Shown piece by piece: positions 11,583 through 64,000 of a DNA stretch of 64,000 nucleotides. The notes under the pieces are model-generated. The model did no database searches. It was not told the DNA's origin and worked only from the letters and a program-made list of their open reading frames with translations. Position 1 is the first letter of the stretch. Each line of letters begins with the position of its first letter. Origin of the DNA: Amoebophrya sp. A120. Its lineage: Eukaryota > Protista > Dinoflagellata. A program made the position numbers and the translations under genes. Location of the stretch: positions 1,054,001-1,118,000 of the forward strand of contig CAJINV010000020.1 of assembly GCA_905178155.1 (NCBI GenBank). Reading direction: 5' to 3'.

Positions 11583-14500
11583 CTACTTTTTAATTCTAGC
11601 TAGTGAGCGTTGCAACGCCTGCTGCAACAACCCAGGGCGCGGCTTCGGCGGAAGTGAAGCTGCGAGGACCCCGGATGTTCTTCGCGCGTTCTCGCCTGTT
11701 AGTACCCCAGAGCGAGTTCTTCCAGATCGCGTTCTCATCAGGAGTTCCAGCTTTGGTGATCCACCCACGAAACTGTTTTCGGCTCGCCAGATGGTGGAAG
11801 AGGGGCCATTCCAATTGTAGGTAAGAAAACAACAACTACCCGTGGCACTAGGAGACGTTCTCGGGGCCAAATTGGTAAGCTGTAATGCGGCCTGGTGCTG
11901 CCATTGCGCTGGTAACGCAGCGGAGCCACCGCCGCCTGCTCCACTGTCGTCGGGCAGATGAACAGCCGAAGTCGATGAACTCGATCCCCTCCAATCACCA
12001 GAAGATGGCCGAAAGTGATTCGACAAGGATGATGAAGTAGTAGAACTGTGGTCACCGCTAGTAGTTGTACTACTCAAGTGCAAATTTTGGAGGCAAGAAG
12101 AGAGTCGATTCAGTGCGCACAGCGCCGCTACGTTCTTCACTAAGGGAGATGTGTAGCGCCAACGGTTACACGATCTTGTCGGGTGCTGTGGTGTAGTGGT
12201 AGTTTTTCTGTGGCAGTTTCTGTTTTTATTCTTCATCGTTGCTGCTGATGGCGGTGAGTTGTCGAGTTTCTCCTTTTTTGTACGTGAAGCAAGGTCAACT
12301 TCAACATGGTCATCAGCATCAGAATCGGTAGTCGAATAGCTCCAGGAACTACCGCTGGCCGTCCGACTTCTGGAAGCCATTGGATCACACGCATCGTGTG
12401 CAAACTTCTCCTTGGCTAACCACGCGTGTAGATCGTCTAGGGTAGGCTCGTCGCACAGATCATGAGATAGGCTGTTTCGGTCCGACGTGGTCGGCCGCTG
12501 CTCGTCCTCTACTTTGGCTGAAGAACAATCGGAACGGAAACCGCATTCAACATCTTCAGCATTGAGATTGACGCTTGTTCTTGCCAGGCGATCTTGTCTG
12601 CCTCCTCGCTTAATACCGCCTGCACCTGGAGGAGCTCCCGTCGTCGAGCCTCCTGCTCCGCTATCAAAACTAGTAAGCTCCTTCTGCATCAGCTTCTTAT
12701 CGTTGTGAAGAGCACTCTCATGCGTCGCGGTAGAATTCTCACTTTCATCAAACGTAGTTTGGCCACCAACCTCTTTAATACTTGCTTTGTCTGCCCGCGG
12801 GGCTTCTTTCATCGCGGGCAGAAAATCCGCGGTCACAGCGCCTTCTACCCTAGCCGACGTGGTAAAGCTCCGCTTCGCCGCGGCAACTTTCGGCCTCAGC
12901 TTGATGACGGAGACCTGTTGTGGTGGCACGACATCGGTTGATAGGTGCTCGAACAACTTCTGGGTGTCCTTTTTCTTCCGCGGACACTGTTGCAGCTTTT
13001 TCGGCACGCGAATGATTGCCCCGTTCTCCTCGATATGAACTGCAAAAATGTCTGGGTCTGGAAACTTGTGATGCTGAGTGGCGTAGCATGAGGGGGCCAC
13101 AAGTGCTGGCTCAGCATGACAAATTTCTGAGCTTGTAGGTGTTGCCTATTCTGCATGACAAACTGCGTCTCCGCATGACAGAAAAATGCGGCTCTTGGGC
13201 AACGTGCATGACAGATTTAAGATTCATGCCAGACAAGCATCACAAACATGCATTCTTCCAGACCCAGACATTTTTACATTTGATATTCGAGCAGCGGGTA
13301 GGCCTTCGCCTGGTTCTTCGTCAATCTGGACCTCACTTCTCGGTCGGAAATTTTCGACTTGTATGACGCCCTCAGAATGGAAATCCTCAAAGTGGAAATA
13401 ATTTGTGATGCATGAAATGCGACACCAAAAAGACTGTATTGCAGAGAACGCAATGGAGGCGGACTATTGTGCTTCTACGGGTTCAGAATTGGGCTCCTGA
13501 TTAGCATGAGAGGAGGGCACCCTTTTGCATAACTAGCATGACAGACACGTTTTGAGTGCCCGGGAAATTTGTCATGCGCCGACTATAAATGGTGCTCCAA
13601 CTGGAGTCGCTTTTTTGCATTACAAATTATTTTCACTTTGAGGATTCCCAACCTGAGGCTTTCATAACTTGCCGCAGGACGAGAAAAAGGTGCTGCACTT
13701 GACTTCTTTAACCTCCGTGATGCGTGGTGATGTGGCAGGGGGTTCATCATTGATTGTGGTCGCTGCTTGTTCATCTAGTTGGCCGCCCTCGTCTTGTTTT
13801 GCTCGCTGGTGGACGCCGGTGTCAGTGTCACAAGATGGCGTTAATTGTTCTTCCATGTTGGTTGCGGTAGAGTCAGGAAGCAGGTGGGCCGGCCCGGCGC
13901 CAAGTCTTGCAGACGGACACACCGGTGCCGGAGCAGGTACTGATCGAATCGGTCTGGAGTAGTTTTTGGCAACGGATGCTGACCGAAGTTGCGCTTCACG
14001 TGGATTTTTGTTTGCTACATGTTCTCCGTCTCGTGAACGCACGTTAAATGAACCAGGATTCTGCCGAACACAATCGTCCTCCGCAATGTCGTTCGGCGCA
14101 GCTGATGGGGCCCCTGCTGCTCCTGCATGCAGTTCTTCTTGATCTTGTAGCTCAGCTGCATCACCAATGCGGCTGTCTAGTCTTATTTCTGATTCAGGTG
14201 CTGCAGAGGCAGAGCTCGGACAACTCGCGTTTATTTCTGATGAACTATTGTGATTGTCCTCTGCTGAAGAAGATCTCTCGTCCGCCGATCTAGAAGATGC
14301 CGAGGAGGAAAAGTCGACGGTCTGAATGATATCAACGCGCGTAATCAAGGGTTTTCCGTTTTCCTTCACTACCGGCACGCCGTTCTTTCCCACGGGCTGC
14401 AGTCGCACCTGCAAAAATTCCCGCACAACGGGCCGCGGCCCCGCCGCGCGTCGCGTGCTGGCGATCGGCACGCGATTGTCGTATCGGTGCTTTCTGTTGT

Positions 14501-14978
14501 GGTCGTCGGAGCAAGAGCTGCTGCGACACACTCGGCTTTCCGCTTCCGCGCCCTGCGCCCGGATGGCGCGCAGGAACGCCGAGCGGTCGGGTTTAGTACT
14601 CTGGCTCCTGTTCGCGAGCGAAGAAGAAGTTGGACTTGTGGTCGTGCTGGTGGCGCAGTTCTTTTTGCTGTGACTGCCTGATGAAATTTGTTGAGCACGA
14701 CAATTTTCACCTCCAGCATCTTCAGCGCTGGATGAGGTCGCCGAGGTTGCAGCCGTGCGGTTCGATCGATTTTTTTTCTTGCTCGAATCGCCGGTTGAAG
14801 ATCGGGTGGAGGAACTAAGTGCAGTAGCTTGTTGTAAGGGAAAACAGGGGTGATGTTGCCACGACGTCGACCACGACGTCCTTGCGTCAAACAACAATGA
14901 CAGCAGAAGGCCGCACCAATACCAGCACTTTAGTACCGCGACCGAAGCCAGAAAATTGGCTTTGATGTGATGACTCAT
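11583..14978 (-). CDS. Signal-peptide protein with PD-(D/E)xK-like nuclease domain, paralog 1 (~942 aa, 3 exons)
   Basis: Removing 13362-13666 and 13034-13285 gives a 2829-nt frame. Hydrophobic N-terminus; core TRVDII...EVKEVKCS...LTKNQAKAYPLLEENGA...VPPQQVSVIKLRP is conserved with the paralog at 19329-22199. The nuclease call is from motif recognition. Confidence 0.75.
13034..13285. mobile_element. Introner-type element, family A (252 bp)
   Basis: Family A TIRs, TSD ctcga/ttcga; interior closely similar to 51192-51447. Confidence 0.9.
13362..13666. mobile_element. Introner-type element, family C, diverged (305 bp)
   Basis: ~50-bp imperfect TIR, TSD acttg/acttg; removal gives CGKSKISDRE. 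Confidence 0.88.
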
Positions 14979-16912
14979 CTTCCTCGCGCAGCTGGTGTCG
15001 GTGCAATTTCTACAATTGGGTCGTTAGGTCTAGCTGCCAGCTCGTCTTCGCCTGTCACGCGCCCCTGGTGCGATCAGGAATTCTTGATCTGGATGATCTC
15101 TATGGAGGCCATATGGTGCTGCGCAGCCAGGGCTGTTTGTGGTCTGCCTAATCATACCGTTCAACTAAAGAAGCAAGGACTTTTTGAGTGATAGTGGTTC
15201 TTAAGTTCGCAAATGCTCGCTCTTCGAGTCTCGCAAATGCTTTGTCCGAATAACGTGAACAATTCAAAGAATACGCAAAGGAAAAAAAAAACATGTCACA
15301 GGTAAAAACAAAAGAGAAGATTTGAAATCTGTTGGGCTGCAAGAACTTCGCCTGGAATTATTCTAGTGTTTCATCTAATGCATTTTGTTCTCCTCACTGT
15401 GACGGTCGATATGCTTTGACAAATAAATGAAAATGATAGAGAGCTAAGCCGTTGTTGCGCCTATTAATGTCGTGATATAATTTTTCATCTAGTTGTTCCA
15501 GATCACCGACCGCTATCGCTTTCGATTATTTCTATGACATCGAGATCCAGATCATAAATATCGATATCCAATCTTGATCGCATATTACGAAACAGCCTGA
15601 CAACATCATTGGTGCGTTTAAAAAACCTACATTTATGATTGAAAGCGAAAGACAACAGTCTGGCGAAGTGAACATCTCGAGAGGTGGGAGGAGCCTATGC
15701 AACCCCGCGGAGGGCGGGCGTCATGCTCATGAAACGCCCCGCCAATCTCTTTCTCTATTCCTTGTTCCTGATGGCAGTATTATTGCGGTTGCCGCTGCAA
15801 GCGTCGTGTTACTTGATCCACAGTCTTTTGATATGAAGCTGATGCAGCTGCGAGCTGCCTGCACTTCACATCGCGCATCCTGCACTCTGGCGAATGCCAC
15901 TACCTACTTAATTGCCAGGTGGAACTTGGCATACATTCGCTTCAAGTGAACGTGCAGTGCTCTTCTAAAGTATCATAAAATCAGACATAGAAGTTCTCTT
16001 TCAAAGTAGACCCGCTGCGAGCGCTGTCTCGTATGCTAGACTACTTCTTCATAAAATAAAGGCCTCAGATGTAAATGGCCGCTTTCCACTCTGTGAATCG
16101 TCTCGATGGTTTGATGTCATATGAGGAGCCAGAAGCAGAGTAAGGTAGAATTCTTACACACGCTTCAAGAGTGCTCTAGAGTCCTATCGTAAAATCATAT
16201 ATAGTTCTTTCGCAAGGTAGTGGTAGCCCCACTCCGGGCGCAATCATACAAAATCTCTTCTTGTCAGCGAATACATTGATACCCCTGGTGGTGCAAGGGG
16301 CTCACTTGCAGCTTTCCTACGGTTAAGCTGCACACAGGATGAAGAATAATATCAGCACCACTCACAACCACAAGTTTCCAGATCCAGGCACACGTTTGCA
16401 ATGCGTAGGCGGCTGACGCAATTTCTACACAAGCCACGACGTCGGCACGCATCGTCGTGAATCATCACGGTGCGGCTGCTACTGTTCCACCGTTATGGTA
16501 TCATTTGCTGTTGGCTTGGTTGAAACTCTTCGATGTAATGCTCTGGCGGCATCCTGTGTAAAAACATCTCCAGCCCAGTAAATCCATCATGGATGAGGTA
16601 TCGTTTTTATTTTCCATCATGAGGTTCTCCCCTAAGCAAATCTTCCCTGAGGTATCCATCTTGACTCTGGCAGAGTCAAGGTGGATACCTCGCATACACG
16701 AGTCATCAAGGTCGTTTTGCTGATGTATGATGCGCATGAAAGGCTTGGATGGGCCTGCGCCTGCTCTGTAATCGTGTTTATGGAGTGAAGCCGCCTCGCA
16801 AATCGCTCAATTTTCTGGTGATTTTAGCATGAAAAATTGCGAACCACAGTGAGAAATTGCTCCCCGCCTTGGTCGTGGGGGGTGCGCATGCATAATAGGA
16901 ACCGTTGCGATC

Positions 16913-18092
16913 CTACAGCAAATGCAATGAATCTGGGGTGGCGATGTTCTTACTCACGATAGGTACGTTCTGCCGCCTGAGCCGCTTCAGTTGCCGTTTT
17001 CGGCATTCGTGGTGGAAATGAACTCCAGCTGCGCCCGCACCTGTGAGTACGCCGCCCACACAGAAAGCGGCAGCCGGGGCTGGATGCCCACTAACCAGGC
17101 AGGTGCCGGCAGCTAGACACAGACAGGAGCCAACTAGAGAGCAACCTGCACACGCCTCGGGTGAGCAGTACAACCTGCACACACGCCGTCTCTCGCGATC
17201 GTGTAGCAGCTGCTCAAGCCTTTCCTCCCGTTCAACCCTTGCAGGTGGCGGCCGCCGCACGAAGCACTGGTCGGCGTGGTTGCAGCCAGGACATGTGGCT
17301 GGAAGACCTTGTCTCCGACACCGTTCGACCCATACCGCTGCGCAGTCCCTGTGCATTACATGCCTTTTCCCCCCCGGTTGCGGTGCCTGGGAAAAATTCC
17401 CCCTCCCATCCCAAATGGCAGTGGGGGACTTCCATGTGTTGATGCAGATTCGTGGACGCAGATTGATACGCTTTGACATTGCTAAATGCTATTCTTGCAG
17501 GAGCGGAAGCACATTCAAGCACCCATTGCAGCGTGACGCAGATGCTTACTAGTCTGTGTCGCCAGTTGCAGCATCGTACCTGTAGTTCGGCATGGCAGAC
17601 TGCAGAGCGGTACTAGTTCTAGTGCGGCGCAAAAATACATACGAGAAGAAAAAGCTAAAGCAGATGCCCGCTGTTTCTGCATACACAATTATAAACCGAA
17701 GATTTAATTGGGAGGGGGGGCTTTTTGCTCCCGATAACATTCTTGTAGAACACATGCAGGCCAATGCATGGCCTTCCGTTGAGCAGGGGATCCAGGCAAA
17801 CGGGGCACAGCTCGGCTGGGTCGATCTGGTTACTTTGTTCCGTGCTAGCGGAGTAGTTCTGCTGGTTACCACCTTCCGTCGTGATAGCGGAAGGCAGAGT
17901 CAATGGCTGTCCTGCGGGTCCTCCTGCCTGAAACTGGAGTGCATGCGCAACAGGGGAGAGAAACAAGGATAACGAACAGAGTGCCAGAACGGCTGTCGTC
18001 GCAATCTGACAGCGCACAACCCGAGGAGCGGGTTGCCGGTACATAGACGCATCACGACGCCACGAGGACACGGGAACGACCATCTCCAACAT
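16913..18092 (-). CDS. RING-H2-like zinc-finger membrane protein (~270 aa, 2 exons)
   Basis: GT-AG intron 17387-17753 joins CPVCLDPLLNGRPCIGLH to APQPGGKRHVMHRDC...CPGC; hydrophobic segments near both ends; start codon uncertain. Confidence 0.65.
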
Positions 18093-18716
18093 TTTTGCGA
18101 GGTTACGACTTGATCGTGATGCTGCTACTTGCACAGGGGGCTTCTACTTAGTATAGTAGTGATGAAAACGAGAAAAAAAAACGATTGAGATTGAAAAGAA
18201 AGTGCTTGCCTTCAATCCGTCAAGATCAAATCTGCGATGGCGGTGCGGGAGAGTAGTTCAAGTTTTGTAGTAGAGCGAGGAAGAACAAGAATCAAGTCTG
18301 TAAATGTAGTCGCACTGCGCCAACTATGAAGGAATACTCTATAGGGGGAGCTATGGAAGACGAAGAGCAAGAAGGTTTTTAATACAACTACTTGATAGAA
18401 GTTAGGGGGAGCAATACAAGGTTGTTGTATTTTAAAGTCAGAGACGCTGTTGCGGATGCGGAAAATGGAAATGCAATGAAGACAGCTCCGATCATGGAGT
18501 GAATTCTGATGCTGCGCTGGCTGCGATGGGTAGTCTTCGACATTCACATTGAAGATTCTAGCACTACAATGCCAAATCCTGTGGAACTAAGGACGCTGAT
18601 CCGAAATTAGAGAACCGAGACCCTACTTGTACTTTGCGTTTGCCTTTGCCTTTGCTCCCTCCTCGGCACCGATTTTTATAGTGACACGGATTGGTGGACG
18701 ACCTCCACTTGAATCA

Positions 18717-18797
18717 TCCTCTGATCGATTGTCCTCTGATCGCTTTTTTCTGATCGATTATCCTCTGATCGATATATATCCTCTTAGTCTGATCGCT
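18717..18797. repeat. Cluster of five tctgatcg motifs
   Basis: (tcc)tctgatcg repeated with short spacers in intergenic DNA upstream of the RING gene. Confidence 0.7.
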
Positions 18798-19328
18798 TTT
18801 TTTCTCGTCACCGAGCTTGTTCTACCTCGTCTGCACCGACGCGTTTAAGAAGTACTTGCTTTCTATCTACTTGTTACAACGTCAGCACGTCTCTCCATGA
18901 CAGGTGAGAAAGCCTGTCACGCAACGCTGGTAGGATCGGAATCGGTCGTGAAAACATGTCTGAAAAGAGAACTTCATCATGATGGTTGGCCAGCATGACA
19001 AGGTTGGTCAGCAGGAACTGTGTTGCACGATATTTATGATGCGTTAAACTTACACTTTATGCTTGAAAATGAAAGAGAACAATGCTGACGAGAATCTTTT
19101 TGTTCTTCGCTCCTGTTCTTCTGCAGTTTGGTCCTCGTCGTCGCGGGGACAACTATCACCGTCCAGTGCAGAAAACTGAAAACTTCTTCTGTAGTTCGTG
19201 CACTGGTGCTCATCGATCGTGGGATGCATAGACATGCAACGTCCAATAGACGATCAGACAAAAGCGGGGGCGTGGTAGTGGTAGTGCCTTTGTGATGTAC
19301 AACATCTTCCAGGTTGTCCTCTTTGTCG

Positions 19329-22199
19329 TTAGCTCAGTATACACGTGGACCAGGCTGGTCCTGCTGTATTCATAGGAGAAATACCTCCTGAGCCCGCACT
19401 TGTTCTCTGTGAGGCTGCAGCGGCCCTTCCTCGAAGTAGAACCGCGTTAGGGCTGGCAGCTGTGCTGGCTCCTTTTCTTCCGCGAGCTTCAGCTTGAAGA
19501 TTTTTCGTCGCATCAGTTTCTCCTCCTGAAAGTCGCATTTGTTGCAAACGAAGCGACAGGTCGTTTTCTATCGCTCGATCGTCATCTTGTGCAGCTCTTT
19601 CCACTTCTTCTGCTATTAACCCGGGGTCACGAGGACTCAACACAGCTTGGGGGCCACGTCGGCTGCCGGTTTTTGGCTTCCTTTCCGCGTCTACTGATCG
19701 CGTCTTTGGCAAGGCAGGACCAGTGGTCCCAGGTGCCGAAGCCGATCGAGTTTTTATTCCAGAAGCCGTTAGCAATGACGACGCATGTAGTTGTTCTCGA
19801 CGTCCTTGATGATCTTCACCGCGCGCAGGCTTCGGCGGGTTTTGCCGCGATACAGCAACAGCAGGCTCATCAGTCATCAGATGATCGTCAGCACAATCGA
19901 AATCATCACCATGTTGTACTTCCCAGTCCTCTAGCTCGTCCAGTTCAAAAACAGACGGCAAAGAGAAATCCTCCGGATGATCCACATCTTGTGACGAACA
20001 AGCGCCAGGAGTTGTATCTCCGTCCGTATCATAGCTCTGCTGGTTATGGATGTGTCAGGTTTGAAATCGTCAAAGTAGTTGAAGTAGTTTGCCATGCATA
20101 AAACAGATACCAGTCGGAAGCCCACTTATCAAGCGGCGCATGACAAATTTTCCGAGCGCCGGAATCCAGTTTGTCATGCTGTTTGGGCACAGAAGACTGC
20201 TTTTGTCATGCGAGTTCAGAAGCTCTATTTCAAACCCTAAACAGGCTCACAATCGGCCTCACTTGCTATCCCGGCAAGGCAGGCACCTCATGCCTTGCAT
20301 GTTATGCATGGCAAATCGTTTCAACTTTGTCGATTTCAAACCTGACACTTCCATACTGGTGTAGCAATCCTTGTCCTTCCGTTCTTGCAATCCTGTCTGT
20401 ACGCACTTCCATGCCACGTGGCGTGTCGTCCTGGTTTGTCTTCATTTTCGCCGTATACAGTTCGCGAGACCACGTCGGTGGCGGAATCTTGATGACCGAA
20501 ATTTTTATCGGCGGTACTTGTATCGATTGCAAGCACTCTGCCAGCTTCTGGGAACTTTTCTTTCCCTCAACGGACTTCGGCGCGTTCTTCGGTACCAGAA
20601 TTAGTGCGCCATTTCGCTCCAACAGAGTATGGAAGAGGAAAGTCATGGTCGAGGGGGTGGATGATCATAAAAAACGAGAATCTCAAAATAAAATGTCGCA
20701 CGACGACGTGCAAGTTTTGCTGCAACAGTAACACAGAATCTGAGTGCCGTTTGAAATTACAAGTAGATGAACGCCCCAGCCACTTTCGCACTATGATACA
20801 AAGGGTAGCCTTCTTTCTGATTCGCAGTCAACTGTTATCAACCAAAGAGCATAGTCACCATAGCAATAGCACTGGCAGGCGGGAAATGATCATAATTTCA
20901 CAGCAATGCCAATGTAAAGTCGAGATTCGAATTCGGTTGCTTGCAGGAGTCTGAGAATCTGCAACAGTATAAAAATCTGATGAAAATTCTTCAAGTGAAT
21001 GTCTTCCTCCTCCCTACAGTTACAAATTACAATTTCAATTAGTGGCGGAAGTGGGTCCTTAATACAATAACTTACAGCGGTCTACATTATGTCTAGGGTG
21101 ATAACAGCGTCTGCACTTCCGGGTCGTGAATGTGGGATTTGCCATAGCGGGTGAAATTCGCACTACACTTCACCTCCTTCAGTTCGTGGATACGCGGCGT
21201 GCCAGAGTCAGGAGGCGTGGTTTGAGAATCTGTACGCGAGCCAGCACCTGCAGGATCAACATGCGCCGTTCTACTTCTTGCAGGATACTCCACTGTTTGC
21301 ACCAGGTCGACCCGAACTACCAAAGGGGCTTCCTCTCGCGTCCTCTTGTCCACTTTGCAAGCCGGCTGCTTTGAGTCATCGAGCACCTGTAAGCGAACCT
21401 CCTTAAATTCTCGCAACACGGGGTATGTAAGCGTCGAGATGAAACTGGATCGAGGAGCGCCGGCGTGGTCTCGCGACGACGTTTGATCCGAACTACAGGA
21501 GCGGCTCCGGTTTGGGGATATAATGGACACGTCGTCTGTTGTTCTCGAGGCTGCACCGAGCTCCTTGCTTTGCGAATCGCAATCGACGTCAATAGGTGAG
21601 GTTTCGATCAGTGGGCCCGCCCATCGCAGCTGCTCGTCGTGGATTTCTGTTTCTGGTTCAAGTTCTACTTGTTCTAGCAGTGCAGCCGAAGATGAGGCAG
21701 AGCTACCCGTCGACTTGCAGCGTCTTCGGAACCGGGTCTCGAGGCGTCTTTTACTAGCGATCGGCACCAGTTCTCCCGAAAGATGATCACCATCGCCTTC
21801 ACCTTTTTCAGAAGATCCCTTGGCTACAGTGCGCGTAGTTCGACTGACCCTCTCTTCGCCGTATTTTCCCTGGGCTCGACTGGCAGCTAAAAGAAGCCCG
21901 CGATTTTCGCGCCCTGTGCCTTTGCTTGTCGTGGTGATCTCGTCTCCTGTTCCTATGGATGTTGTAGCGCGGGTCTGGCCACAACGTCCATAACTGCTAC
22001 CTTGCGGAACCTCACTGCAATGACGCACAGCGTCCGAAGAACCGCGCGCCCCATCTTCAGACACAGACACCCGGCTCCCATATGTCACAGAGGCTGCCAA
22101 GAGAAAAGGGATCAGGAAGTAGAATGCGACAGCGGGTGGTAGGCCGGAAAACCGGAGACCGCAGCCGCAGCGCCGTGCACGCTCTTGCTGTGTTTCCAT
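19329..22199 (-). CDS. Signal-peptide protein with PD-(D/E)xK-like nuclease domain, paralog 2 (~701 aa, 4 exons)
   Basis: Removing 20836-21103, 20628-20798 and 20045-20355 gives a 2106-nt frame. Micro-exon ~20799-20835 supplies LTANQKEGYPL. Core VRVDLV...ELKEVKCS...LTANQKEGYPLLERNGA...VPPIKISVIKIPP. Confidence 0.75.
20045..20355. mobile_element. Introner-type element, family C (311 bp)
   Basis: TIR tatgga.g.gtcaggtttgaaatcg.caaag, TSD ctggt/ctggt; opposite orientation to 24624 and 48348. Confidence 0.92.
20628..20798. mobile_element. Decayed introner-type element (171 bp)
   Basis: TAT...ATA, weak TIR, TSD cagag/caaag; removal gives YPLLERNG, matching YPLLEENG of paralog 1. Confidence 0.75.
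20836..21103. mobile_element. Decayed introner-type element (268 bp)
   Basis: tatca...tgata ends, TSD actgt/acagc (3/5); removal gives EVQTLLTANQ, matching EVRSRLTKNQ of paralog 1. Confidence 0.7.
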
Positions 22200-35021: not shown

Positions 35022-36279
35022 TAGTGGTTGAAGCAATGTGCATGCTGCTGAGTCTGTGCCGTTTTCGGAACACATACGAATGCAGCCCCTTCGGGCTTTA
35101 GGACCGAACAAGGTGCACTTTAGGACCGAACAAGGTGCATGCTTCTTGCGCGTGAGAGATGATTTGAAGAGCCAAAAACAGCCTCATCCTGCTTCGAGAA
35201 AAAGCAATGGACACCAGCACGAAGCAATTACATACTTAGTTCTGACAAGAGACAAAGGTCTGGAATAGTAGTTCTGGAATAGGGGCGAAGCGCTTACTTG
35301 TCTACACTTCTGTCTTTAGTTCTGCAGGAATTCACCGATAAACGCATCATTGTCACTGGCGTGACCTTCGTCTTTCTCGCTGTCACTATTTAAGAGGGCA
35401 ATTTCTTCACGATCATCAGCTACAGTGTCGAAGAACCACTGCAGTGAGTTGCTCCAGTGCATTGGCCGATCAAATTTTTTACTATTGCGAGTGTAATAGA
35501 GCACCATGGAGTCATCTGACCACCTCGCATGTGACACAATCTTTGCCGTGTCGACATCTAACAAAAACAAGTGCACTGCCAACCCAATCCTGCAGGAGTG
35601 CGAAGACACATTCTTGCACTCTGGGACGATGCCCGTGATGTATTTCACCGCTGCGGACAAATTGAGCCCGTTTTTAGTGGACCGGAGGAAGTCGTTCACT
35701 TTTTTGTTGTGTATGAGGCACAGGCGCGAGTAGTCCTTTTCTTTTCCCGCGTCGACCGACCCGGGAGTTGGGCGGAAGCATGAGCAATGGATCCGGACAT
35801 GTCGCGCGCACCTGGGGCCGCCTTTCTGGCGGTAATTCGAGAGATCGAGGTGAAGACTATGGTCTACATCTGCGAACTTTAAAAACGTAAGGAATACTCT
35901 ACACACTTCTCGACGTGAGAAGTTGAGTATACTTAGCTGCTACGGCAGCGGGAATGTGCCAGTGACTGCTACCCGGAAGAAGTTTGTTTTGTTTTACTCG
36001 AAGATCACTCAATCTCTCATGCGAGTTCGCTCTTGGACTCTCAGAAAGATTCGCTCGTTGACGATGCACGACACGAGCGGAAATTGTACACGGACGACAA
36101 CTGGGACGAGCGAACAGCATGAGGAAAATATGTAGTAAGTGTGATCGTCGATCGATCGCTATGAAATACTGCTACACTCGCGATGCTCCCTACGCATCTA
36201 TTTAGTGGTTAAGGCAATGTGCATGCCGCTGAGTCTGTGCCGTTTTCGGAACAGATACGAATGCAGCCCCTTCGGGCTT
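35022..36279. mobile_element. Tyrosine-recombinase element remnant bounded by 77-bp direct repeats
   Basis: Repeats 35022-35098 and 36203-36279 (4 mismatches) enclose a tyrosine recombinase-like frame. Confidence 0.7.
35316..36050 (-). pseudogene. Decayed tyrosine recombinase
   Basis: C-terminal SHSCRIG (HxxR), HARW and MVLYY (Tyr). A box-I-like FLRVQE lies in the same frame at ~36047-36030 but is separated by three in-frame stops. Confidence 0.75.
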
Positions 36280-48900: not shown

Positions 48901-51900
48901 TTTTGATTTTGTTGCTCCCACTTTATTTTCCTCTTGGTTTGATGCCTGAGCAAGACGCGCCTGCGGAGATGAGTGCTCGGGTAGTGGTTGTTCTTTTCCT
49001 GCTGCTGCTCCGGCGGAAATCGGCTCTTTGCTCACCGTTTTCGTCACCGCGACTGGCGACTTACTGCGGTTTCTCTTCGACTTCGACTCGGCCTGCCCGC
49101 CCGCGGCGCTGCTCCGCGGCTCGGGGGTGATGTAACTGTCGAGGGTGCCGGCCCAGGTGTCGTTGGACGCGACGGACATAATGCTGTCGGCTACTTTGTG
49201 CACGTCGAAAGAGCTGGGAGTCAGGCGTAACATTTCCTGCTCGATCTTTTTCCCCGTGTGAATCACGGACAACTTCATCTGCCAATCCAGTTCTTGTGAA
49301 GATGAACTAGTACCAACATCAGGAACTAGTGCAGCATCGTGGTCCTTGTCCATCGACGTACTCGGTGAATTATAATTCGCTCCTGTCTTATCAACAAGAT
49401 CCGTGCTGTAGGTGAACGCGACGACCTCGCAGTTGTTTTGCTCCGCTACCTGATTTTTCCGGAACAGCAACCCGCCCAGACTGGTCGGGTAGCTGACCGC
49501 TAAATTCACAACCTTCTTCAGCATGCCGATCTCCTGGGCGCGCTGTAACATCATCCGGACCACCTCCGCCTGATTCCTCCGAGCCGCGAAACAGAGAGGC
49601 GGAAGGCCCGTGCTTTGCTCGGGGAGCGTCAAGTCCACGCGCTGCTCCGCGGTGGCAGTGTTAAAGATCAAAACGCGGAGAAATTCCAACCAGGCGAGCT
49701 GTTCCTTCTTCCGGTCTCGCGGCATGTAGAACGCACCGTGCTCTTGGTGAATTCTATTCGGGATCGTTGTACTTGAGCCGTCGGCCCCAGACGGAGAGGA
49801 AGCACGAGGAGCGCCGGCCGCGCGACGGGATTTGGCTGTACTATTGCTGACCTTCGTGATGTTTCCAGCGCTCGCGGCGGTTTGCAAAAAGGGCCAGATC
49901 ACCCGGGGTTCCTGGCGCAAGGCGTGGCACAAGGGGGGGGCGGTCAGCGGACACCGGGCGCTCGGGTAGTGCGAGATATGGCGCTCTCAAACGTTACATC
50001 CTCAACTGTTACATGAGTTTGTAATGCAAGAGTAGTAAAAGCCAAAGGAGGGAGGTTGCGCCTCTAGCATTACAAATTCCGCACAGATTTAGCTGCTGTT
50101 TAGCCCTTCGCAAATTTGTCATGCGAAGCAGCTTGATCGTGTGGATCTTGATGGTAGTTTAGCATGACAAATCCATGTAACACTTGAGAATGTAACGTTT
50201 GAGAACGCCATACGAGAGCCAGCCGAGGTCGAGCGCGGCCTGCTCGTTGACGCCCCGGGTGTTATCAAATGCAAAAGTGTCTGGGTCTGGAAGAATGCAA
50301 GATTTGCCATGCATATCTCTCATGACACATGATGCCTGTAATGCATGACCTAGCATCGCAGACCTTTTGAGGGCTTCCTGATGCACCTTCCGCATGAGAA
50401 ATGCCCTGTCCGTGTAGCACAAATTGCGCCCCTCTTGCTGGTCATGCAATACAATTTTTTTTAGAGTCCAAAAATAGCATGACAAGTTTGCACTCTTCCA
50501 GACCCAGACATTTTTGCAGTTGATAGGTGTGCCAGCGCTGCAAAAGCAGGGAAAGAAGCTCGGTGCGCTCCGCCCAGCTGCAATTGTGGGCGGAGGTCAG
50601 GTAGACGAAACTCCCATTCCAAAAATGCTCGTCCCAGTGCTCGGTCGTCGACAGCTGGAGGATTTTCTGCAGCAGGGAGCACGTGCAGCGGCTCCAGATC
50701 CATTCGCAGAGGGACATCTGTGGATAATTCATCGAGAATTTCTGGAGATTATTTCGTTTTTACTTCTTTTATTACGTGCTTTTGACACCGGGAAGTGAGT
50801 AGAGAGCATGCGCAAAAATTGGAATCAACGGTAACTTTTTTCTACTCTGATGCAACAACTAAATCAACAAGTAAACACGACACAACAAGTTCTTGTACCT
50901 TATTCGCATCCTTGAGTTCCGCGAGCTGAATGACTCCCAACCCGTGGACAAATTTATTTAAGGTATACAAAAATTCTTCTTCGTATAATTCCGCAACTGG
51001 CGCCGGCTCGTTTTGCGCGCCGGCCACGTTGGCACCAGCACTCGTTGCCAGAGTGGTCGTCGTGATGTGCGATCGGAGCCATTCCTTTTGCACGCGCTCG
51101 AAGCAGTCGGTCCAGGTGTCCTGGCCCCGCGGCTGCAGGTGACTCTCCAGCGGCGTTGGGGGCGGGAAGGCAACGAGCTCCCAGGCCCCGGTATCAAATG
51201 TAATTAAAAGTGTCTGGGTCTGGAAACTTGTGATGCCGGGCGGCGTCTCATGATGAGGCCACAGATGCTGGCTCAGCATCGCAAGTTTCTGAGCTTCTAG
51301 GTGTTGCCTATTCTGCATGACAAACTGCGTTTCTGCATCACAGAACAATGGGGCTCTTGGGTAACGTGCATGACAGATTTAAGAGTCATGCCAGACAAGC
51401 ATGACAAACGTGCATTCTTCCAGACCCAGACATTTTTACATTTCATACCCGGTTTCGTACACGGCCACCGGGTCGGAAGTCCGAAGGACCGTTTTCGCGC
51501 TCTCCCCGCCGACCTTGGAAACTCCCGGCCCGGCGTTCTTGGACTTGCGCTCCGCCAGGCTTTGCCGTCCGTTGGTCGTTGTGCCGGTGACCTTTTGCTG
51601 GAACTGCCACGCCTGCAAGAAGCGAAACGTGATCACCGGAGCAGCAGAATTTTTGTCAGTTTGTGTTTCGACCGCCGCACGACCAGTGCCAGTGGCAGCT
51701 GCGTCAGCAGTTGTAGTCGTAAACACTTCCTCCGCGAGCCAGAGAAATCTTCTGGGCACCTGCAATTTCTTCGCCAGCAGCGGGCAGAGCTCCGTCAACG
51801 TCACTGCCTGCTTCTGGGCCTCCAGGCCCCGGTGAGTCCACGCGACACCCAGGGGAATCTCCTCCCCAACCACCGCGTCACTGTAGTAGTCCGTGAGGTA

Positions 51901-59997: not shown

Positions 59998-62331
59998 TTA
60001 GAAATGGTTCACGCTTGGTCCTCTTCCCGCACCTCCTCGAAGCTCACCGTCACCACTCGAAGGAGAGCTCCCCCTCCTCACAACTTTCCCAAGATGAACT
60101 GCTGGTCGCTGGCCTGCGTTGTCGCTACTGGCTCCATCCGTGTCCATCGTACTTCCGTCCTCGCAGTCGTCTTTCTCATTATCCGACTCTGAGTCGGGTG
60201 CTCCTTCTGGCCGGGGGTCCTCTTCCGAGATCTTGTAGAGTGCGCCCCTGGAAATAACTGGTGGCGGATGTTGATGAAGCGAGCCAAAATCAAATTCGAT
60301 CGTCTTACGCCGCCGGGGCTTGCGAGAGGACGAACAAGGATCGACTTCGCGCTCAGTTCTCTCTTGTTCAGCTGCTTCCTGTAGGTCAGATTCTCTTCCT
60401 ACTTCTGGCGCTGCTGGAACAGTAGCAGTACTTACGCCAGCTCCTTCCCCCCTCGTACTTGCTCCGTTGTCGTTGTCCCCGAGATGCAGTTGCTGGATGA
60501 ATTGTTGGCTAAGCGTACCAAGCGATGTGTTGTAGTGGTGCGCCGGATTGAAACCGAGCACTTCGAGTTCAAACATATCTCTGCTGCTGCGATTCAACGC
60601 CAAGCCGTCTGCATCCTCTGCATCGCGGTCTCGTGACAGGAGGAGCTCATATGGACGACCAGTCGTACCTGTATCCGTATCCGAATCGATCTCGTCTCCA
60701 CCTTGAAGACTGGCACTTTCCGAAGGATTTTCGACATCGTCTTCGTGGTCCTCCGAAGGCAATGATCGGGGCTGCAGCGACAGGTGCAGCAGCTCGCTCT
60801 CCTCTTGTTCGCCCCCTTCGGGCACTGGCGGAAGTGGGGGCGTTCGCGGAGGCGACAGCGTCGGCGGGACGCCAATAGCTAGTGTCGCCCCTCGAGGAGG
60901 AGGTCCTACCCCAGCAGCAGGATTGATCATGCTCGAAAAAGTCATACCAGTGCGACTGCCACTTGATGCAGTATTAGGACTTGCTGTTGCTCCGCCCACA
61001 TTTGCATAACTCGGTGCGAGTGCAGTGTGATCTCTACTTTGGTGGCTGTTGCGACCAGAGCCGAACTTTGGCGTTATCCGCTCGCTGAGCGGTTCAAAGG
61101 CCGCGTCCTCGCGCCCTACCTCCTGCTCTTGCTGCTTTGCCTGCAAGTAGAACATGTTTTCAGCATCAGGCCCAGATTCTGCAGCACCATTTTTCCTGTA
61201 CGCGACCGGGGGAATAAGAGGACCACTAGGAGCTGTCTTCGCTTCCGCAAGACTTCTGCTGTAGCGTGTTGCAATTGTTTCGCCCGGAGCGGCACTAGTA
61301 GGCGACGCTGCTGCTGCTCCGCCTGGTGGTGATCCTAGCCGAAGTTCTTGCTGATGTTGTGTCACGAGGTTTGCCGTGCTGCCGGTCTGGGGACCGCCAC
61401 ACTGCCGCGAGAGAAACCCCGACGTAGAAGCTGGCTCTTGACTACAGGACTTCGACCCTGGAACCTGATCTTCATCCGCCGCGGTTCGCATCATCTGTGG
61501 TGGGGGTTCTACCACCGTATTGCTGATGCTGGTAATCTTCGCGGAAGGTTGCAAGAACCACGTCGGCCCTATATTTTGGAACATCGCCGGGGGCAAGAAT
61601 CCGCCGGACGATCCTATTGGACTCGCTGCAGAATCTTCCAGCAAATCTGGAGGCGAGGATGTCAGGGACCACGACGCGAAGTGGTCATGATGTCCATGCC
61701 CGTCTACTTCCGAGTACGCCCGCGACTGATGTGACGAAGCAGATGGTCCGCCGGCTGTAGTTGCTGCAGATAACACTGGGGACGAGCCAGAGCCTGCTCC
61801 GGCGCCTACAGGCGTGGCCGTTCCACTGGAAGTAGAGGTGCCGCCTCGCATCATTTTTTCCAGAGCTTGGAGGTGTTGGCCTTGTTGGTTCTTGTATACG
61901 ACAACGACAGGGGTAGACGCGGGCCTGGTGTCGAAGTGATCAACTCTGGAAGTAGTGGTAAAAGCAGCTGCAGCTGCACTTCTTGTCGTAGTCCTACTTG
62001 GCACTACCACTTGTTCCGCGAATGCGATTGCAAGTTCGTGTGGATGCTCCTCGTCCTCGACGTCGCTTGCCTCGCTTGGGGGCGAACCCGGGGGAGCCTG
62101 CGGTACACCATGGTGGAAATGGCCACGCTGGTGAATCACTTTCACCGCACCCGCACCTGCGACCAAAAAGGGTCTCCGATGCGGCCCACGACCCCCGGCC
62201 AGCGCGGACAGAAATACTAGGTGCTGCATCAGTAGCCACACGTAGCACGTCGGCTTGATTTTTCTTCGGACGGTGGTACTTGAGGGAAAGTAGAGCGCCC
62301 GTGGAGATTCAGGCTTCATTTTCTTCCGCAA
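59998..62331 (-). CDS. Low-complexity hypothetical protein (up to 777 aa), possible signal peptide
   Basis: Long uninterrupted ORF; hydrophobic CYVWLLMQHLVFLSALAG near the start; start codon uncertain. Confidence 0.65.
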   Translation of the reverse strand: MRKKMKPESPRALYFPSSTTVRRKIKPTCYVWLLMQHLVFLSALAGGRGPHRRPFLVAGAGAVKVIHQRGHFHHGVPQAPPGSPPSEASDVEDEEHPHELAIAFAEQVVVPSRTTTRSAAAAAFTTTSRVDHFDTRPASTPVVVVYKNQQGQHLQALEKMMRGGTSTSSGTATPVGAGAGSGSSPVLSAATTAGGPSASSHQSRAYSEVDGHGHHDHFASWSLTSSPPDLLEDSAASPIGSSGGFLPPAMFQNIGPTWFLQPSAKITSISNTVVEPPPQMMRTAADEDQVPGSKSCSQEPASTSGFLSRQCGGPQTGSTANLVTQHQQELRLGSPPGGAAAASPTSAAPGETIATRYSRSLAEAKTAPSGPLIPPVAYRKNGAAESGPDAENMFYLQAKQQEQEVGREDAAFEPLSERITPKFGSGRNSHQSRDHTALAPSYANVGGATASPNTASSGSRTGMTFSSMINPAAGVGPPPRGATLAIGVPPTLSPPRTPPLPPVPEGGEQEESELLHLSLQPRSLPSEDHEDDVENPSESASLQGGDEIDSDTDTGTTGRPYELLLSRDRDAEDADGLALNRSSRDMFELEVLGFNPAHHYNTSLGTLSQQFIQQLHLGDNDNGASTRGEGAGVSTATVPAAPEVGRESDLQEAAEQERTEREVDPCSSSRKPRRRKTIEFDFGSLHQHPPPVISRGALYKISEEDPRPEGAPDSESDNEKDDCEDGSTMDTDGASSDNAGQRPAVHLGKVVRRGSSPSSGDGELRGGAGRGPSVNHF

Positions 62332-64000
62332 ACTCCTAAAACCTAATCAGCTAGTAGCACGACGTGCGTCGAAGTCAAGTTGCCAAAATTGTGAAAGGTG
62401 CGGGACAAGAGGAAAATCCTGCTCAGCTCCGTCTCCGTGCGAAAAAAATATAAAGCGTATTGATATAGTTCGGTAGATAGTGGAGTTGATGGTCGCTAAA
62501 ATTTTATTGGTTGCCGTCAAAAAGCGACGGGTTTTTGATACACGTAGAGGTAGATGGCTTCAGCTTCATTAAGTCGTGGTCGTGAAAGTCGTGCTCCAAT
62601 CGTGTTTCTTGCGTTCGCTTTTCATCGAAGTGGAGTTGAGATTGTTTGGCCATAAGGACGATGAGCATCGTGGTGTTGAAAGCAATAGAAAGGGAGTGAC
62701 GCGCCGGCTCCTTCTTCTCTTTCGCTTATTTTTTCACCACGCTTAATATCATATCTGCTTGATGTCGTAGTGGTACGTGGCCTGTCTGCGGTCTTTATCT
62801 TTTTGGTGTCGTGTAGGTCGCTTTGGACGGACGGCGTCGCTTTGGACGGCTCGCGTTTCGTGTCGTACCACTTTTGACGTTGTAGAAGCCCCGATTGATG
62901 ACCGTTCTCCTCGTCGCCCCGTTGTCTACGTCTAAGTTCAATAATTTGGATTCCTTTTCCTGGGTCGGGTGCTAGTTGTTGTAGCGCTTTGATCTATATG
63001 CTGACACTACTAGTGGTATGCCACTATGTTGATGGCCCGCCTCGAAGTTTGCCTGCAGCTTTACGTAGAGCCTCAGCAGCAGTTGTAGCGCTAGGGCTAC
63101 GGCTAGCGCGTGTGAGTAATAATTCAGTTTACAACAGCACTCTATGTTGACTTTGTTTATCTGCACGGTCAACAACAGCAACGGCTACTCCTCACCCCAT
63201 CGGCAAGCGAGTGAGATAGTACTGAAATTCTTTTATCGACGCTTTTTTTCTGGTTCTACGCTATACAACTTTGTTTAAGTCATCTAGTTCGAAAGAGTCG
63301 TAAGTTGTCACCGTGAAGTAGATCGCTTCAGATGTAAATCATGACGATTGAAGAAAATAGAAGTCCTTGTACTTGTTTCACCGATCGAGAGGAGATCTTG
63401 AGAAGTTTTGGACTGATGTTGATGGATCGACAACTCAATGATTGGATGAAGTTGTAAAAAAGTAGGCATGTTGCGGTTGGTGCAACGCTCCCACACTTTT
63501 TCCGTTCCCATACAGCAGCTGTGGGAGCCGGATGCACATACAACCAGGAGCAAAACATGAAGAAGAAAATAGCGGTCGAGTAGACAGATCTTTGGAAGCC
63601 TTCTTTGTACAACAACCATTTCAGGCATTGTACCGGGCTGGTAATAACTAATATGAGACCGTGGTCGTCCTTATGCTCATCAACATCCTTCTTGTATGTA
63701 AGTACTTAAACAACCACCACCAACGGATCTTCAGGACTCTTATCGGAGCTGTCATCTTCAACAAGGCACGGCATCAATCTGCGGGTCCGTCAAGATCACA
63801 TGAATTGATGTCGGAAGCAAGCCGATTCCCATTCCTAAGATCTCCATCACGACGGCCAATAATATAGCACCTTCAACAACTGAACAGGATCGTAATTGTT
63901 GGCGCATTGAAATTGCAGGTGATTGCAGACTAAGACTTCTACTTATTGCATTGATTCATGCCCACTAGCATAGATCTTGAGCTGTGTATGTTGATCCACC

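What the first reader, a model, noticed from the sequence alone, without database searches (positions are those of the whole stretch)
11583..22199. Hidden paralog pair of signal-peptide proteins with a bacterial polymorphic-toxin-like PD-(D/E)xK nuclease domain
Seen: only after removing five elements do both genes yield a shared core, V[VL]REF.[QE]VRLQ...RVD[IL][IV]...E[VL]KEVKCS...LT.NQ...YPLLE.NGA.I.VPK...VPP...SVIK. The core follows a hydrophobic leader and is flanked by unalignable low-complexity sequence. Established: D...ExK is the restriction-endonuclease-fold active site. From memory, the R.D...E.KS...LT.NQ..A[FY]P.[IL]...G...[IV]PP..V...RP pattern occurs in C-terminal toxin tips of bacterial RHS/haemagglutinin proteins. 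Inference: these are secreted DNase effectors, possibly horizontally acquired. That would fit a parasite that consumes host nuclei, as Amoebophrya does. Standard annotation would miss the domain because it is split by micro-exons.
Basis: partly seen in the sequence, partly recalled or inferred. Interest (0 to 1): 0.85.

Follow-up and report, generated by a model that had tools for sequence, protein, structure and literature searches.

The report
Parasite's borrowed bacterial nuclease toxin pair
Two spliced genes of the algal parasite Amoebophrya carry a predicted DNA-cutting domain of the kind found at the tip of bacterial warfare toxins, likely taken from bacteria and likely secreted to break down the host alga's chromosomes, a step for which a 2022 study found no enzyme.

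Summary
Largely confirmed, and extended. Both minus-strand genes are spliced as proposed: RNA-like contigs skip the introns and keep the 70-nt and 32-nt micro-exons. NCBI names the proteins Amoebophrya sp. A120. A DNA pattern for the shared LTxNQ motif gave 10 hits in 185,579 prokaryote genomes, and all 10 are C-terminal tips of one polymorphic-toxin-type family. The full E / D / ExK / QxxxY signature is kept in both genes and in single homologues from strains A25 and AT5; no other protein among 1.84 billion scored. An alignment-guided AlphaFold model assembles the blocks into one confident domain around disordered inserts; its best structural match is VRR-NUC (Z 5.8, modest). Synonymous sites are saturated while the blocks stay 55% identical. 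Homology is well supported and transfer from bacteria is likely. Activity, secretion and a host-DNA target are inferred only. The AT5 model lacks a hydrophobic leader. Long inserts and the lack of a Pfam model, not micro-exons, hide the domain.

The parts
13667..14978 (-). Gene 1 exon 1 coding part: Met, hydrophobic leader (res 12-32), helix block G143/E147 (14582-14523), strand 1 (14432-14391), strand 2 with D216 (14351-14313), ~200-aa insert, strand 3 with E425-V-K427 (13727-13668)
   Evidence: ORF; block coordinates; RNA-like contig tiles (no listed piece bridges 14707-14808)
13357..13666 (-). Gene 1 intron 1, 310 nt, inverted-repeat introner copy with CAAGT direct repeat
   Evidence: 9 blastn hits in window, self included
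13287..13356 (-). Gene 1 micro-exon, 70 nt, holds LTKNQ...Y457
   Evidence: 70 letters between pieces of X2 record 9; NCBI model P0002
13030..13286 (-). Gene 1 intron 2, 257 nt, high-copy introner (90% to 51206-51447)
11583..13029 (-). Gene 1 exon 3: ENG block, basic patch, last strand VPP..VSVIK, long low-complexity tail, stop; whole protein 942 aa
21103..22199 (-). Gene 2 exon 1 coding part: Met, hydrophobic leader (res 20-38), helix block G111/E115 (21899-21840), ~145-aa insert, strand 1 (21422-21381), strand 2 with D298 (21326-21288), strand 3 with E342-V-K344 (21197-21138)
20830..21102 (-). Gene 2 intron 1, 273 nt, single-copy in window, short terminal inverted repeat and GTT direct repeat
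20798..20829 (-). Gene 2 micro-exon, 32 nt, holds TANQKEGYPL (Q370, Y374)
   Evidence: 32 letters between pieces of X2 record 12; P0001
20622..20797 (-). Gene 2 intron 2, 176 nt, single-copy in window
20356..20621 (-). Gene 2 exon 3: ERNG block, last strand VPP..ISVIK
20040..20355 (-). Gene 2 intron 3, 316 nt, introner copy, behind the domain
19329..20039 (-). Gene 2 exon 4: low-complexity tail and stop; whole protein 701 aa (P0001)
15760..18297 (.). Unrelated spliced transcript between the two paralogs (weak RING-like match); not part of the nuclease pair
   Evidence: X4 record 12; zf-RING_2 E 0.1, below cut-off

Best explanation
The two genes are expressed, spliced Amoebophrya paralogs encoding a predicted PD-(D/E)xK nuclease that was likely acquired from a bacterial polymorphic toxin and is likely secreted to cut host-dinoflagellate DNA. 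SHOWN: splicing; paralogy; homologues in strains A25 and AT5; colinear match of six blocks to a family of bacterial toxin tips; conservation of E, D, ExK and QxxxY; saturated synonymous sites. PREDICTED: the blocks fold into one alpha-beta nuclease domain with the inserts as disordered loops. INFERRED: an ancestor of these strains took up the toxin tip alone (no carrier, no immunity gene seen), added an N-terminal hydrophobic leader and low-complexity loops and tails, duplicated it, and later gained the introns independently (their positions differ between paralogs). The leader would send the protein through the ER, which also shields the parasite's own genome; released from the intranuclear trophont, or into its feeding vacuoles, it would nick host chromosomes in a metal-dependent way and free phosphorus and nitrogen. 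My odds by step: homology 0.95, bacterial origin 0.85, active nuclease 0.8, secretory pathway 0.65, host DNA as target given these 0.8.
For: Pattern scan: 10 of 10 hits have the motif 43-49 residues before the stop and share the upstream G..E, D and [DE]xK[SA]S motifs that were not in the pattern; about 0.5 chance hits expected by my own arithmetic at even base composition. 4 of 8 ORFs scanned carry RHS, PT-VENN or haemagglutinin families above cut-off, a fifth DUF6443; plasmid hits are annotated haemagglutinin, VENN or WXG100 proteins; all 11 loci examined have a 107-220 aa ORF right behind the stop, 2 of 3 tested are DUF6572 and one weakly CdiI. L005 shares 15 of 16 motif residues with gene 2. 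The tip profile hits the RhsA tip 7q97 (E 0.004) and Card1 (E 0.02); its model (pLDDT 85) is closest to VRR-NUC, Z 7.2, rmsd 2.7, 83 aligned. Paralog blocks against tips: HHalign 98%, E 2e-13, 102 columns; with the selected motif masked 25.6 against 10.5+-2.2, 0 of 100 shuffles. The unedited AT5 protein aligns from strand 1 to the motif, 95.3%, 62 columns. Gene 2 model: pLDDT about 80-98 over 101-130, 261-310 and 331-430, under 50 in the inserts; best match VRR-NUC Z 5.8, rmsd 3.2, 83 aligned, model range 108-425. 72 of 132 block codons identical in amino acid, pS 0.86, pN 0.31. Only 5 of 1.84 billion proteins hit, all Amoebophrya. Leaders are the most hydrophobic 11-mers in gene 1, gene 2 and A25. 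PMC9478091 (passages): host chromosomes shrink about 3.5-fold around the young trophont and no nuclease signature was identified.
Against: No activity, localisation or stage data; the gene ids were not found in 15 supplement files of two transcriptome papers. The AT5 model has no hydrophobic leader and lacks the last strand, which may be a gene-model error. Leaders are atypical (20-33 residues before the core in gene 2 and A25) and could be membrane anchors; 2 of 14 other window ORFs reach a similar hydropathy. Plain HMMER E-values of the tip profile on the four proteins are 2.6-200. With an automatic, uncut alignment the masked test is weak: 19.5 against 12.5+-2.3, 1 of 100; a blind block chain misplaced strand 1 in gene 2 and strand 3 in gene 1 (gene 1 upstream 5 of 300 shuffles). 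The model was guided by an alignment that I chose so that the blocks matched; Z is under 8 and Foldseek found nothing at E<=0.001. The tree gives a long Amoebophrya branch, no donor and no root. Only 1-2 copies per strain were found, not an expanded effector family.
Confidence: 0.45

Rival explanations
1. Domesticated nuclease that works inside the parasite, for example anchored in a membrane or sent to an organelle, acting on branched DNA in repair or turnover of the parasite's own nucleic acids.
For: Closest folds are structure-specific nucleases VRR-NUC, FAN1 and Hjc; low copy number and strong conservation; a conserved basic patch could be a nuclear signal; leader could be an anchor; AT5 model has none.
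Against: Three of four proteins have a leader; the family is otherwise found on toxin carriers; absent from other eukaryotes searched, unlike housekeeping repair enzymes.
Confidence: 0.22
2. Secreted nuclease whose substrate is RNA (host tRNA, rRNA or mRNA) and which shuts down host expression instead of digesting chromosomes.
For: Cap-snatching endonucleases and tRNA endonucleases are among the fold matches; host nucleolus and transcripts decline during infection; some toxin tips of this fold are tRNases (recalled, no call).
Against: PMC3482391 section 22 says most characterised members of the fold act on DNA; the RhsA tip is predicted as a DNase.
Confidence: 0.13
3. Catalytically silent DNA-binding or scaffold protein that keeps the fold only.
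For: Very long inserts interrupt the active-site elements; geometry of the site was not measured.
Against: E, D, E, K, Q and Y are all kept in 4 of 4 proteins from three strains while synonymous sites are saturated.
Confidence: 0.12
4. Antibacterial weapon kept in its original role, protecting the infected cell or dinospore from bacteria.
For: The bacterial relatives sit in toxin-immunity pairs.
Against: No RHS, haemagglutinin or other delivery domain is attached, so entry into bacteria is unexplained.
Confidence: 0.05
5. Chance motif likeness or bacterial contamination.
For: Whole-library HMMER E-values are not significant.
Against: Spliced genome-specific introners, eukaryotic neighbours (RCC1, ankyrin, peptidase S9), homologues in three strains, six colinear blocks, 10 of 10 pattern hits in one family.
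Confidence: 0.03

Closest known systems
Tox-REase-1 polymorphic toxin domains (Zhang et al., PMC3113570 and PMC3482391; passages, table rows and section 22 seen)
   Same: Signature GE-D-ExK-Q; bacterial relatives sit on RHS, haemagglutinin, TcdB-like and WXG carriers; VRR-Nuc and Holliday-junction resolvase as nearest folds. The 2012 table already lists 'eukaryotes: alveolata, heterolobosea' for this family.
   Different: Here the domain is internal, behind a hydrophobic leader, split by 30-200 aa inserts and introns, without carrier. Whether the LTxNQ tips are Tox-REase-1 proper (or -6 or -7) could not be tested; the alveolate meant in 2012 is not named in the text I saw.
Pseudomonas protegens RhsA C-terminal toxin (PDB 7q97; PMC8765631, passages)
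   Same: Nearest sequence in the PDB to the tip profile, helix to LTKNQ (E 0.004); predicted DNase.
   Different: T6SS-delivered and released from an RHS cage; match covers only profile positions 9-76; no direct hit to the Amoebophrya core.
Crinkler (CRN) REase effectors of oomycetes and fungi (PMC5289972, passages)
   Same: Eukaryotic parasite effectors with a restriction-endonuclease domain aimed at the host nucleus: the best functional analogue.
   Different: No LxLFLAK or HVLVVVP header, no NTPase or kinase partner, no large family expansion; a different REase lineage as far as tested.
Tox-REase-8 of Wolbachia and Amoebophilus, transferred to arthropods (PMC3482391 section 22)
   Same: Toxin REase without immunity gene, aimed at eukaryotic cells, moved into eukaryote genomes.
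   Different: Ankyrin-linked, endosymbiont-derived, other clade.
VRR-NUC / FAN1 nucleases (PDB 4qbn, 8s5a) and TseV T6SS effectors (PMC9635880, listing and abstract start only)
   Same: Best structural match for both the bacterial tip (Z 7.2) and the gene 2 model (Z 5.8).
   Different: 11-18% identity; Pfam VRR_NUC is reached by 1 of 8 tips only, below cut-off; not by the Amoebophrya proteins.
Amoebophrya introner elements (PMC7789003, passages)
   Same: The five introns are non-canonical with direct repeats at the boundaries; three are repeated with terminal inverted repeats.
   Different: Nothing new; they are ordinary for this genome.

Membership tests
PD-(D/E)xK (restriction endonuclease fold) superfamily | Helix E, strand D, strand [DE]xK in order | tested here: met
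   Gene 2 E115/D298/E342/K344, gene 1 E147/D216/E425/K427; same columns in A25, AT5 and 10 tips
PD-(D/E)xK (restriction endonuclease fold) superfamily | alpha-beta-beta-beta-alpha-beta core | tested here: met
   Predicted only: H96-128, E261-273, E294-304, E336-345, H368-380, E417-422; VRR-NUC Z 5.8, rmsd 3.2, 83 aligned; alignment-guided, Z under 8
PD-(D/E)xK (restriction endonuclease fold) superfamily | Acidic residues and Lys cluster around a metal site | not testable with these tools
   Model coordinates are not returned
PD-(D/E)xK (restriction endonuclease fold) superfamily | Metal-dependent nuclease activity | not testable with these tools
   Needs an assay
Bacterial polymorphic toxin with LTxNQ-type REase tip | Homology to the tip domain | tested here: met
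   weaker
Bacterial polymorphic toxin with LTxNQ-type REase tip | Domain at the C-terminus of an RHS, haemagglutinin or WXG carrier | tested here: not met
   Domain is internal, 275-435 aa of tail follow; no carrier family in Pfam
Bacterial polymorphic toxin with LTxNQ-type REase tip | Immunity gene directly downstream | tested here: inconclusive
   None among the flanking ORFs scanned, but only 26 window ORFs were scanned and introns break the rest
Tox-REase-1 | Signature GE-D-ExK-Q | tested here: met
   Signature; columns
Tox-REase-1 | Profile-level membership | not testable with these tools
Tox-REase families with Pfam models (2, 3, 5, 7, 9; list recalled) | Hit to the Pfam model | tested here: not met
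   0 of 8 tips at E<=1; none for P0001-P0004
Secreted protein | Cleavable N-terminal signal peptide | tested here: inconclusive
   Hydropathy 1.95, 2.49 and 2.34 in gene 1, gene 2 and A25; 0.87 at best in AT5; no SignalP
Crinkler (CRN) effector | LxLFLAK / HVLVVVP ubiquitin-like header | tested here: not met
   Not seen on reading the sequences; no Pfam hit
Amoebophrya introner elements | Spliced, repeated, with terminal inverted and boundary direct repeats | tested here: met
   Met in full for 3 of 5 introns; 2 of 5 are spliced with direct repeats but single-copy in the window

The most novel reading that the evidence does not exclude
Amoebophrya eats its host's nucleus with a domesticated bacterial warfare toxin: a lineage-specific secreted DNase whose active site is assembled from blocks up to 200 residues apart, and this is the host-chromosome-degrading enzyme that could not be found in the parasite's genome.
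Probability: 0.4. Interest if true: 0.87.

Novelty: new variant of a known kind. Interest (0 to 1): 0.72.

Why it matters
Amoebophrya infects bloom-forming dinoflagellates, and strain A120 grows inside the host nucleus, where chromosomes shrink before they are engulfed. Decelle et al. 2022 (PMC9478091) state that they could not identify nuclease signatures for this step. These genes give named, testable candidates in three strains. They would also be a clear case of an interbacterial toxin tip reused by a eukaryotic parasite, parallel to Crinkler effectors, and they show how disordered inserts can hide an enzyme from profile searches, which matters for the many unannotated genes of this lineage. 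Eukaryotic uptake of toxin REases is known in general, so the kind is not new. My ten paper searches listed no paper describing this family in Amoebophrya; subscription journals and most supplements were not covered.

Tried and rejected
No whole genome is held for the window, so family size rests on the protein library alone. Word-index searches found only P0001 or nothing. Pfam found nothing for P0001-P0004; PDB sequence search with the gene 2 core found nothing. The ESM Atlas gave no usable feature hit and its own model is poor (pLDDT 0.34); it could not be run on the AT5 protein. Foldseek gave no E<=0.001 match for either model. A search of 400 further genomes of one phylum found no tip, and none in phage records: the bacterial family is sparse. 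No run is on record as an RNA holder; raw-read runs X9 and X10 covered only repeats, not the exons, and say nothing on expression. Contig depths were not used as expression levels. Unguided MAFFT alignments A2, A7 and A8 misplaced one or two blocks; A4 and A5 misplaced the helix row; A9 was chosen after local trials. My first micro-exon coordinates for gene 2 and one codon block were off and were corrected. L013 and L015 were left out of block profiles and the tree (partial; near-copy of L006), as were L008, L010, L022, L023 and L027. The donor lineage could not be placed. Earlier findings of the scan: nothing shown. DUF6572 is not a proven immunity domain: in S. suis it was not needed for neutralisation. 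No complex was predicted.

Full report
Setting. The window is eukaryotic, rich in repeated introns with terminal inverted repeats and carries RCC1, ankyrin and peptidase S9 genes. A search with part of gene 2 exon 1 returned one protein, P0001, 701 aa, labelled Amoebophrya sp. A120. No whole genome is held.

Gene structure. Gene 1 (minus strand) has exons 14978-13667, 13356-13287 and 13029-11583 and gives 942 aa. Gene 2 has exons 22199-21103, 20829-20798, 20621-20356 and 20039-19329 and gives 701 aa. Contigs of runs X1 and X2 skip the introns and leave exactly 70 and 32 letters for the micro-exons, whereas X5 holds unspliced contigs; X3 repeats one joint. The RNA label of these runs is a guess and they are one sample, but the skipped introns show processed RNA. 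No listed contig bridges 14707-14808, so the 5' part of gene 1 rests on the open frame and on the A25 homologue. Three introns are repeated in the window and two are not; four cut the domain. NCBI's model of gene 2 is complete. Its model of gene 1 (568 aa) is spliced alike but lacks the leader, the helix and the catalytic Asp; a 207-aa N-terminal fragment is filed apart.

Paralogy and selection. The two proteins share three gapped segments with E<1 and are otherwise unalignable. In 132 paired codons 72 residues are identical, 45 of them on different codons; pS is 0.86 and pN 0.31. The blocks were chosen for similarity, which lowers pN, but saturation at synonymous sites shows an old duplication with constraint on the blocks.

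Bacterial relatives. A degenerate pattern for the motif alone gave 10 hits in one genome each of 185,579 species; three hits are one Gilliamella tip, so 8 are distinct. All 10 lie 43-49 residues before a stop and share upstream G..E, D and [DE]xK[SA]S motifs. Of 8 ORFs scanned, 4 carry RHS, PT-VENN or haemagglutinin families above cut-off, one DUF6443, three nothing at cut-off. A short ORF follows in 11 of 11 loci examined; 2 of 3 tested are DUF6572, one weakly CdiI. Five metagenome, eight viral-collection and 25 plasmid records add members, on haemagglutinin, VENN and WXG100 proteins where annotated. The tip profile hits RhsA (7q97) and Card1. The tip model (pLDDT 85) matches VRR-NUC at Z 7.2, followed by AF1548, FAN1, TnsA and Hjc; Foldseek ranks Card1 first at E 0.07.

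How strong is the link? Because the tips were found with the motif, I masked it. With hand-cut paralog blocks the rest scores 25.6 against 10.5+-2.2, 0 of 100 shuffles. A blind ordered-block search found the helix and the RVD strand in both genes and the last strand at 1 of 300 shuffles each; upstream chains gave 0 of 300 (gene 2) and 5 of 300 (gene 1), with one block misplaced in each. An automatic alignment of all four Amoebophrya domains gave only 1 of 100 after masking. The unedited AT5 protein, which has no insert between strands 2 and 3 and reads EVKSS and NGGIV like the bacteria, aligns over 62 columns at 95.3%. Plain HMMER E-values at library scale are 2.6-200, which explains why the domain is unannotated. 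Taken together I put homology at about 0.95.

Distribution. A profile of gene 2 plus gene 1 blocks against 1.84 billion representatives gave 5 hits: the A120 models, one A25 protein (729 aa, with leader) and one AT5 protein (457 aa, no leader, no last strand). This profile scores bacterial tips at 21 bits at most (sister alignment A4), so distant eukaryotic members could be missed. In a tree of 20 rows the four Amoebophrya cores form one long branch (100/100) with gene 2 the most divergent; no donor is resolved and there is no root. Bacterial origin is inferred from spread across at least five phyla in toxin context against one eukaryote genus.

Structure of the window's protein. With alignment A9, in which G111, E115, V268, D298, E342, K344, Q370, Y374 and P414 fall on the family's conserved columns, AlphaFold builds a confident domain from residues 96-128, 261-304 and 336-438 and leaves 135-247 and most of the tail under pLDDT 50. 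The best of 48,161 chains is again VRR-NUC (Z 5.8, rmsd 3.2, 83 aligned, range 108-425), and 11 of the first 12 rows are nucleases or uncharacterised proteins of this fold by title or recall. The Z is modest and the model leans on my alignment; Foldseek found nothing.

Targeting. The most hydrophobic 11-mer is at residues 22-32 in gene 1, 24-34 in gene 2 and 35-45 in A25; AT5 has none. Two of 14 other window ORFs reach 1.9-2.0 in their first 60 residues. A cleaved signal peptide is likely but a membrane anchor is not excluded. A basic patch (RKKKD, KKKKD, GKKRD, GKKSS) replaces the bacterial Gly-Pro loop in all four.

Mechanism. Most likely a secreted, metal-dependent DNase acting on host chromosomes; the steps and odds are given under Best explanation. 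PMC9478091 (passages) reports that chromosomes shrink around a young trophont with an intact membrane, which calls for a released factor, and that no nuclease signature was identified. Rivals are an internal repair-type nuclease, an RNase, a silent scaffold and an antibacterial role.

Literature seen. PMC7789003, PMC12130899, PMC6176090, PMC9478091, PMC3113570, PMC12558993, PMC8765631 and PMC5289972: passages only. PMC3482391: passages and section 22. Others: search listings. PMC3482391 already lists alveolates for Tox-REase-1 and arthropod uptake of Tox-REase-8, so the kind is known.

Verdict. Real, more complete than first described, and a good candidate for a stated gap. New variant of a known kind; interest 0.72.

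Noticed in passing
window 35316-35939, minus: ORF with a weak Phage_integrase match (E 0.004, below cut-off) and an HxxR...H/W...Y tail typical of tyrosine recombinases (motif recalled); possibly a mobile-element relic. PMC12130899 lists tyrosine-recombinase introners as rare, not for this species in the passages seen.
   Followed up: partly
window 15760-18297: A spliced transcript with two introns (417 and 360 nt) lies between the paralogs; Cys/His-rich frame with a weak RING match; reading frame across joints not resolved.
   Followed up: partly
window about 21675-21580 (gene 2 residues 176-206): The insert between helix and strand 1 holds a decoy resembling strands 1-2 (EQVELEP...GPLIETSPIDVD) that aligners prefer; it may be a decayed internal duplication.
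   Followed up: no
gene 1 residues about 166-177 and equivalents: A short Amoebophrya-only block after the helix (NRVPIASTRR, ELVPIASKRR, NRIETLSRR, NRVELLSR) is kept in all four proteins and has no bacterial counterpart.
   Followed up: no
window 59998-62346, minus: 782-codon ORF without Pfam match, with a hydrophobic stretch about 25-40 residues after its first Met: another possible secreted protein.
   Followed up: no
window 14373-14407: One contig of run X4 matches only these 35 bases of gene 1 and runs on unlike on both sides: chance, host RNA or a further paralog.
   Followed up: no
window 15752-15910: Over 1,500 raw reads of run X10 lie here at under 90% identity with loose ends: a repeated or conserved element expressed elsewhere.
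   Followed up: no
whole window: At least 60 direct-repeat families and 213 inverted pairs, mostly 180-320 nt introners beginning TATC or TATG and ending GATA or CATA; ordinary for this genome.
   Followed up: partly
L001-L012 downstream ORFs: DUF6572-like ORFs follow most of the LTxNQ tips (2 confirmed by Pfam, several alike by eye), suggesting DUF6572 as the cognate immunity family of this unmodelled toxin tip.
   Followed up: partly
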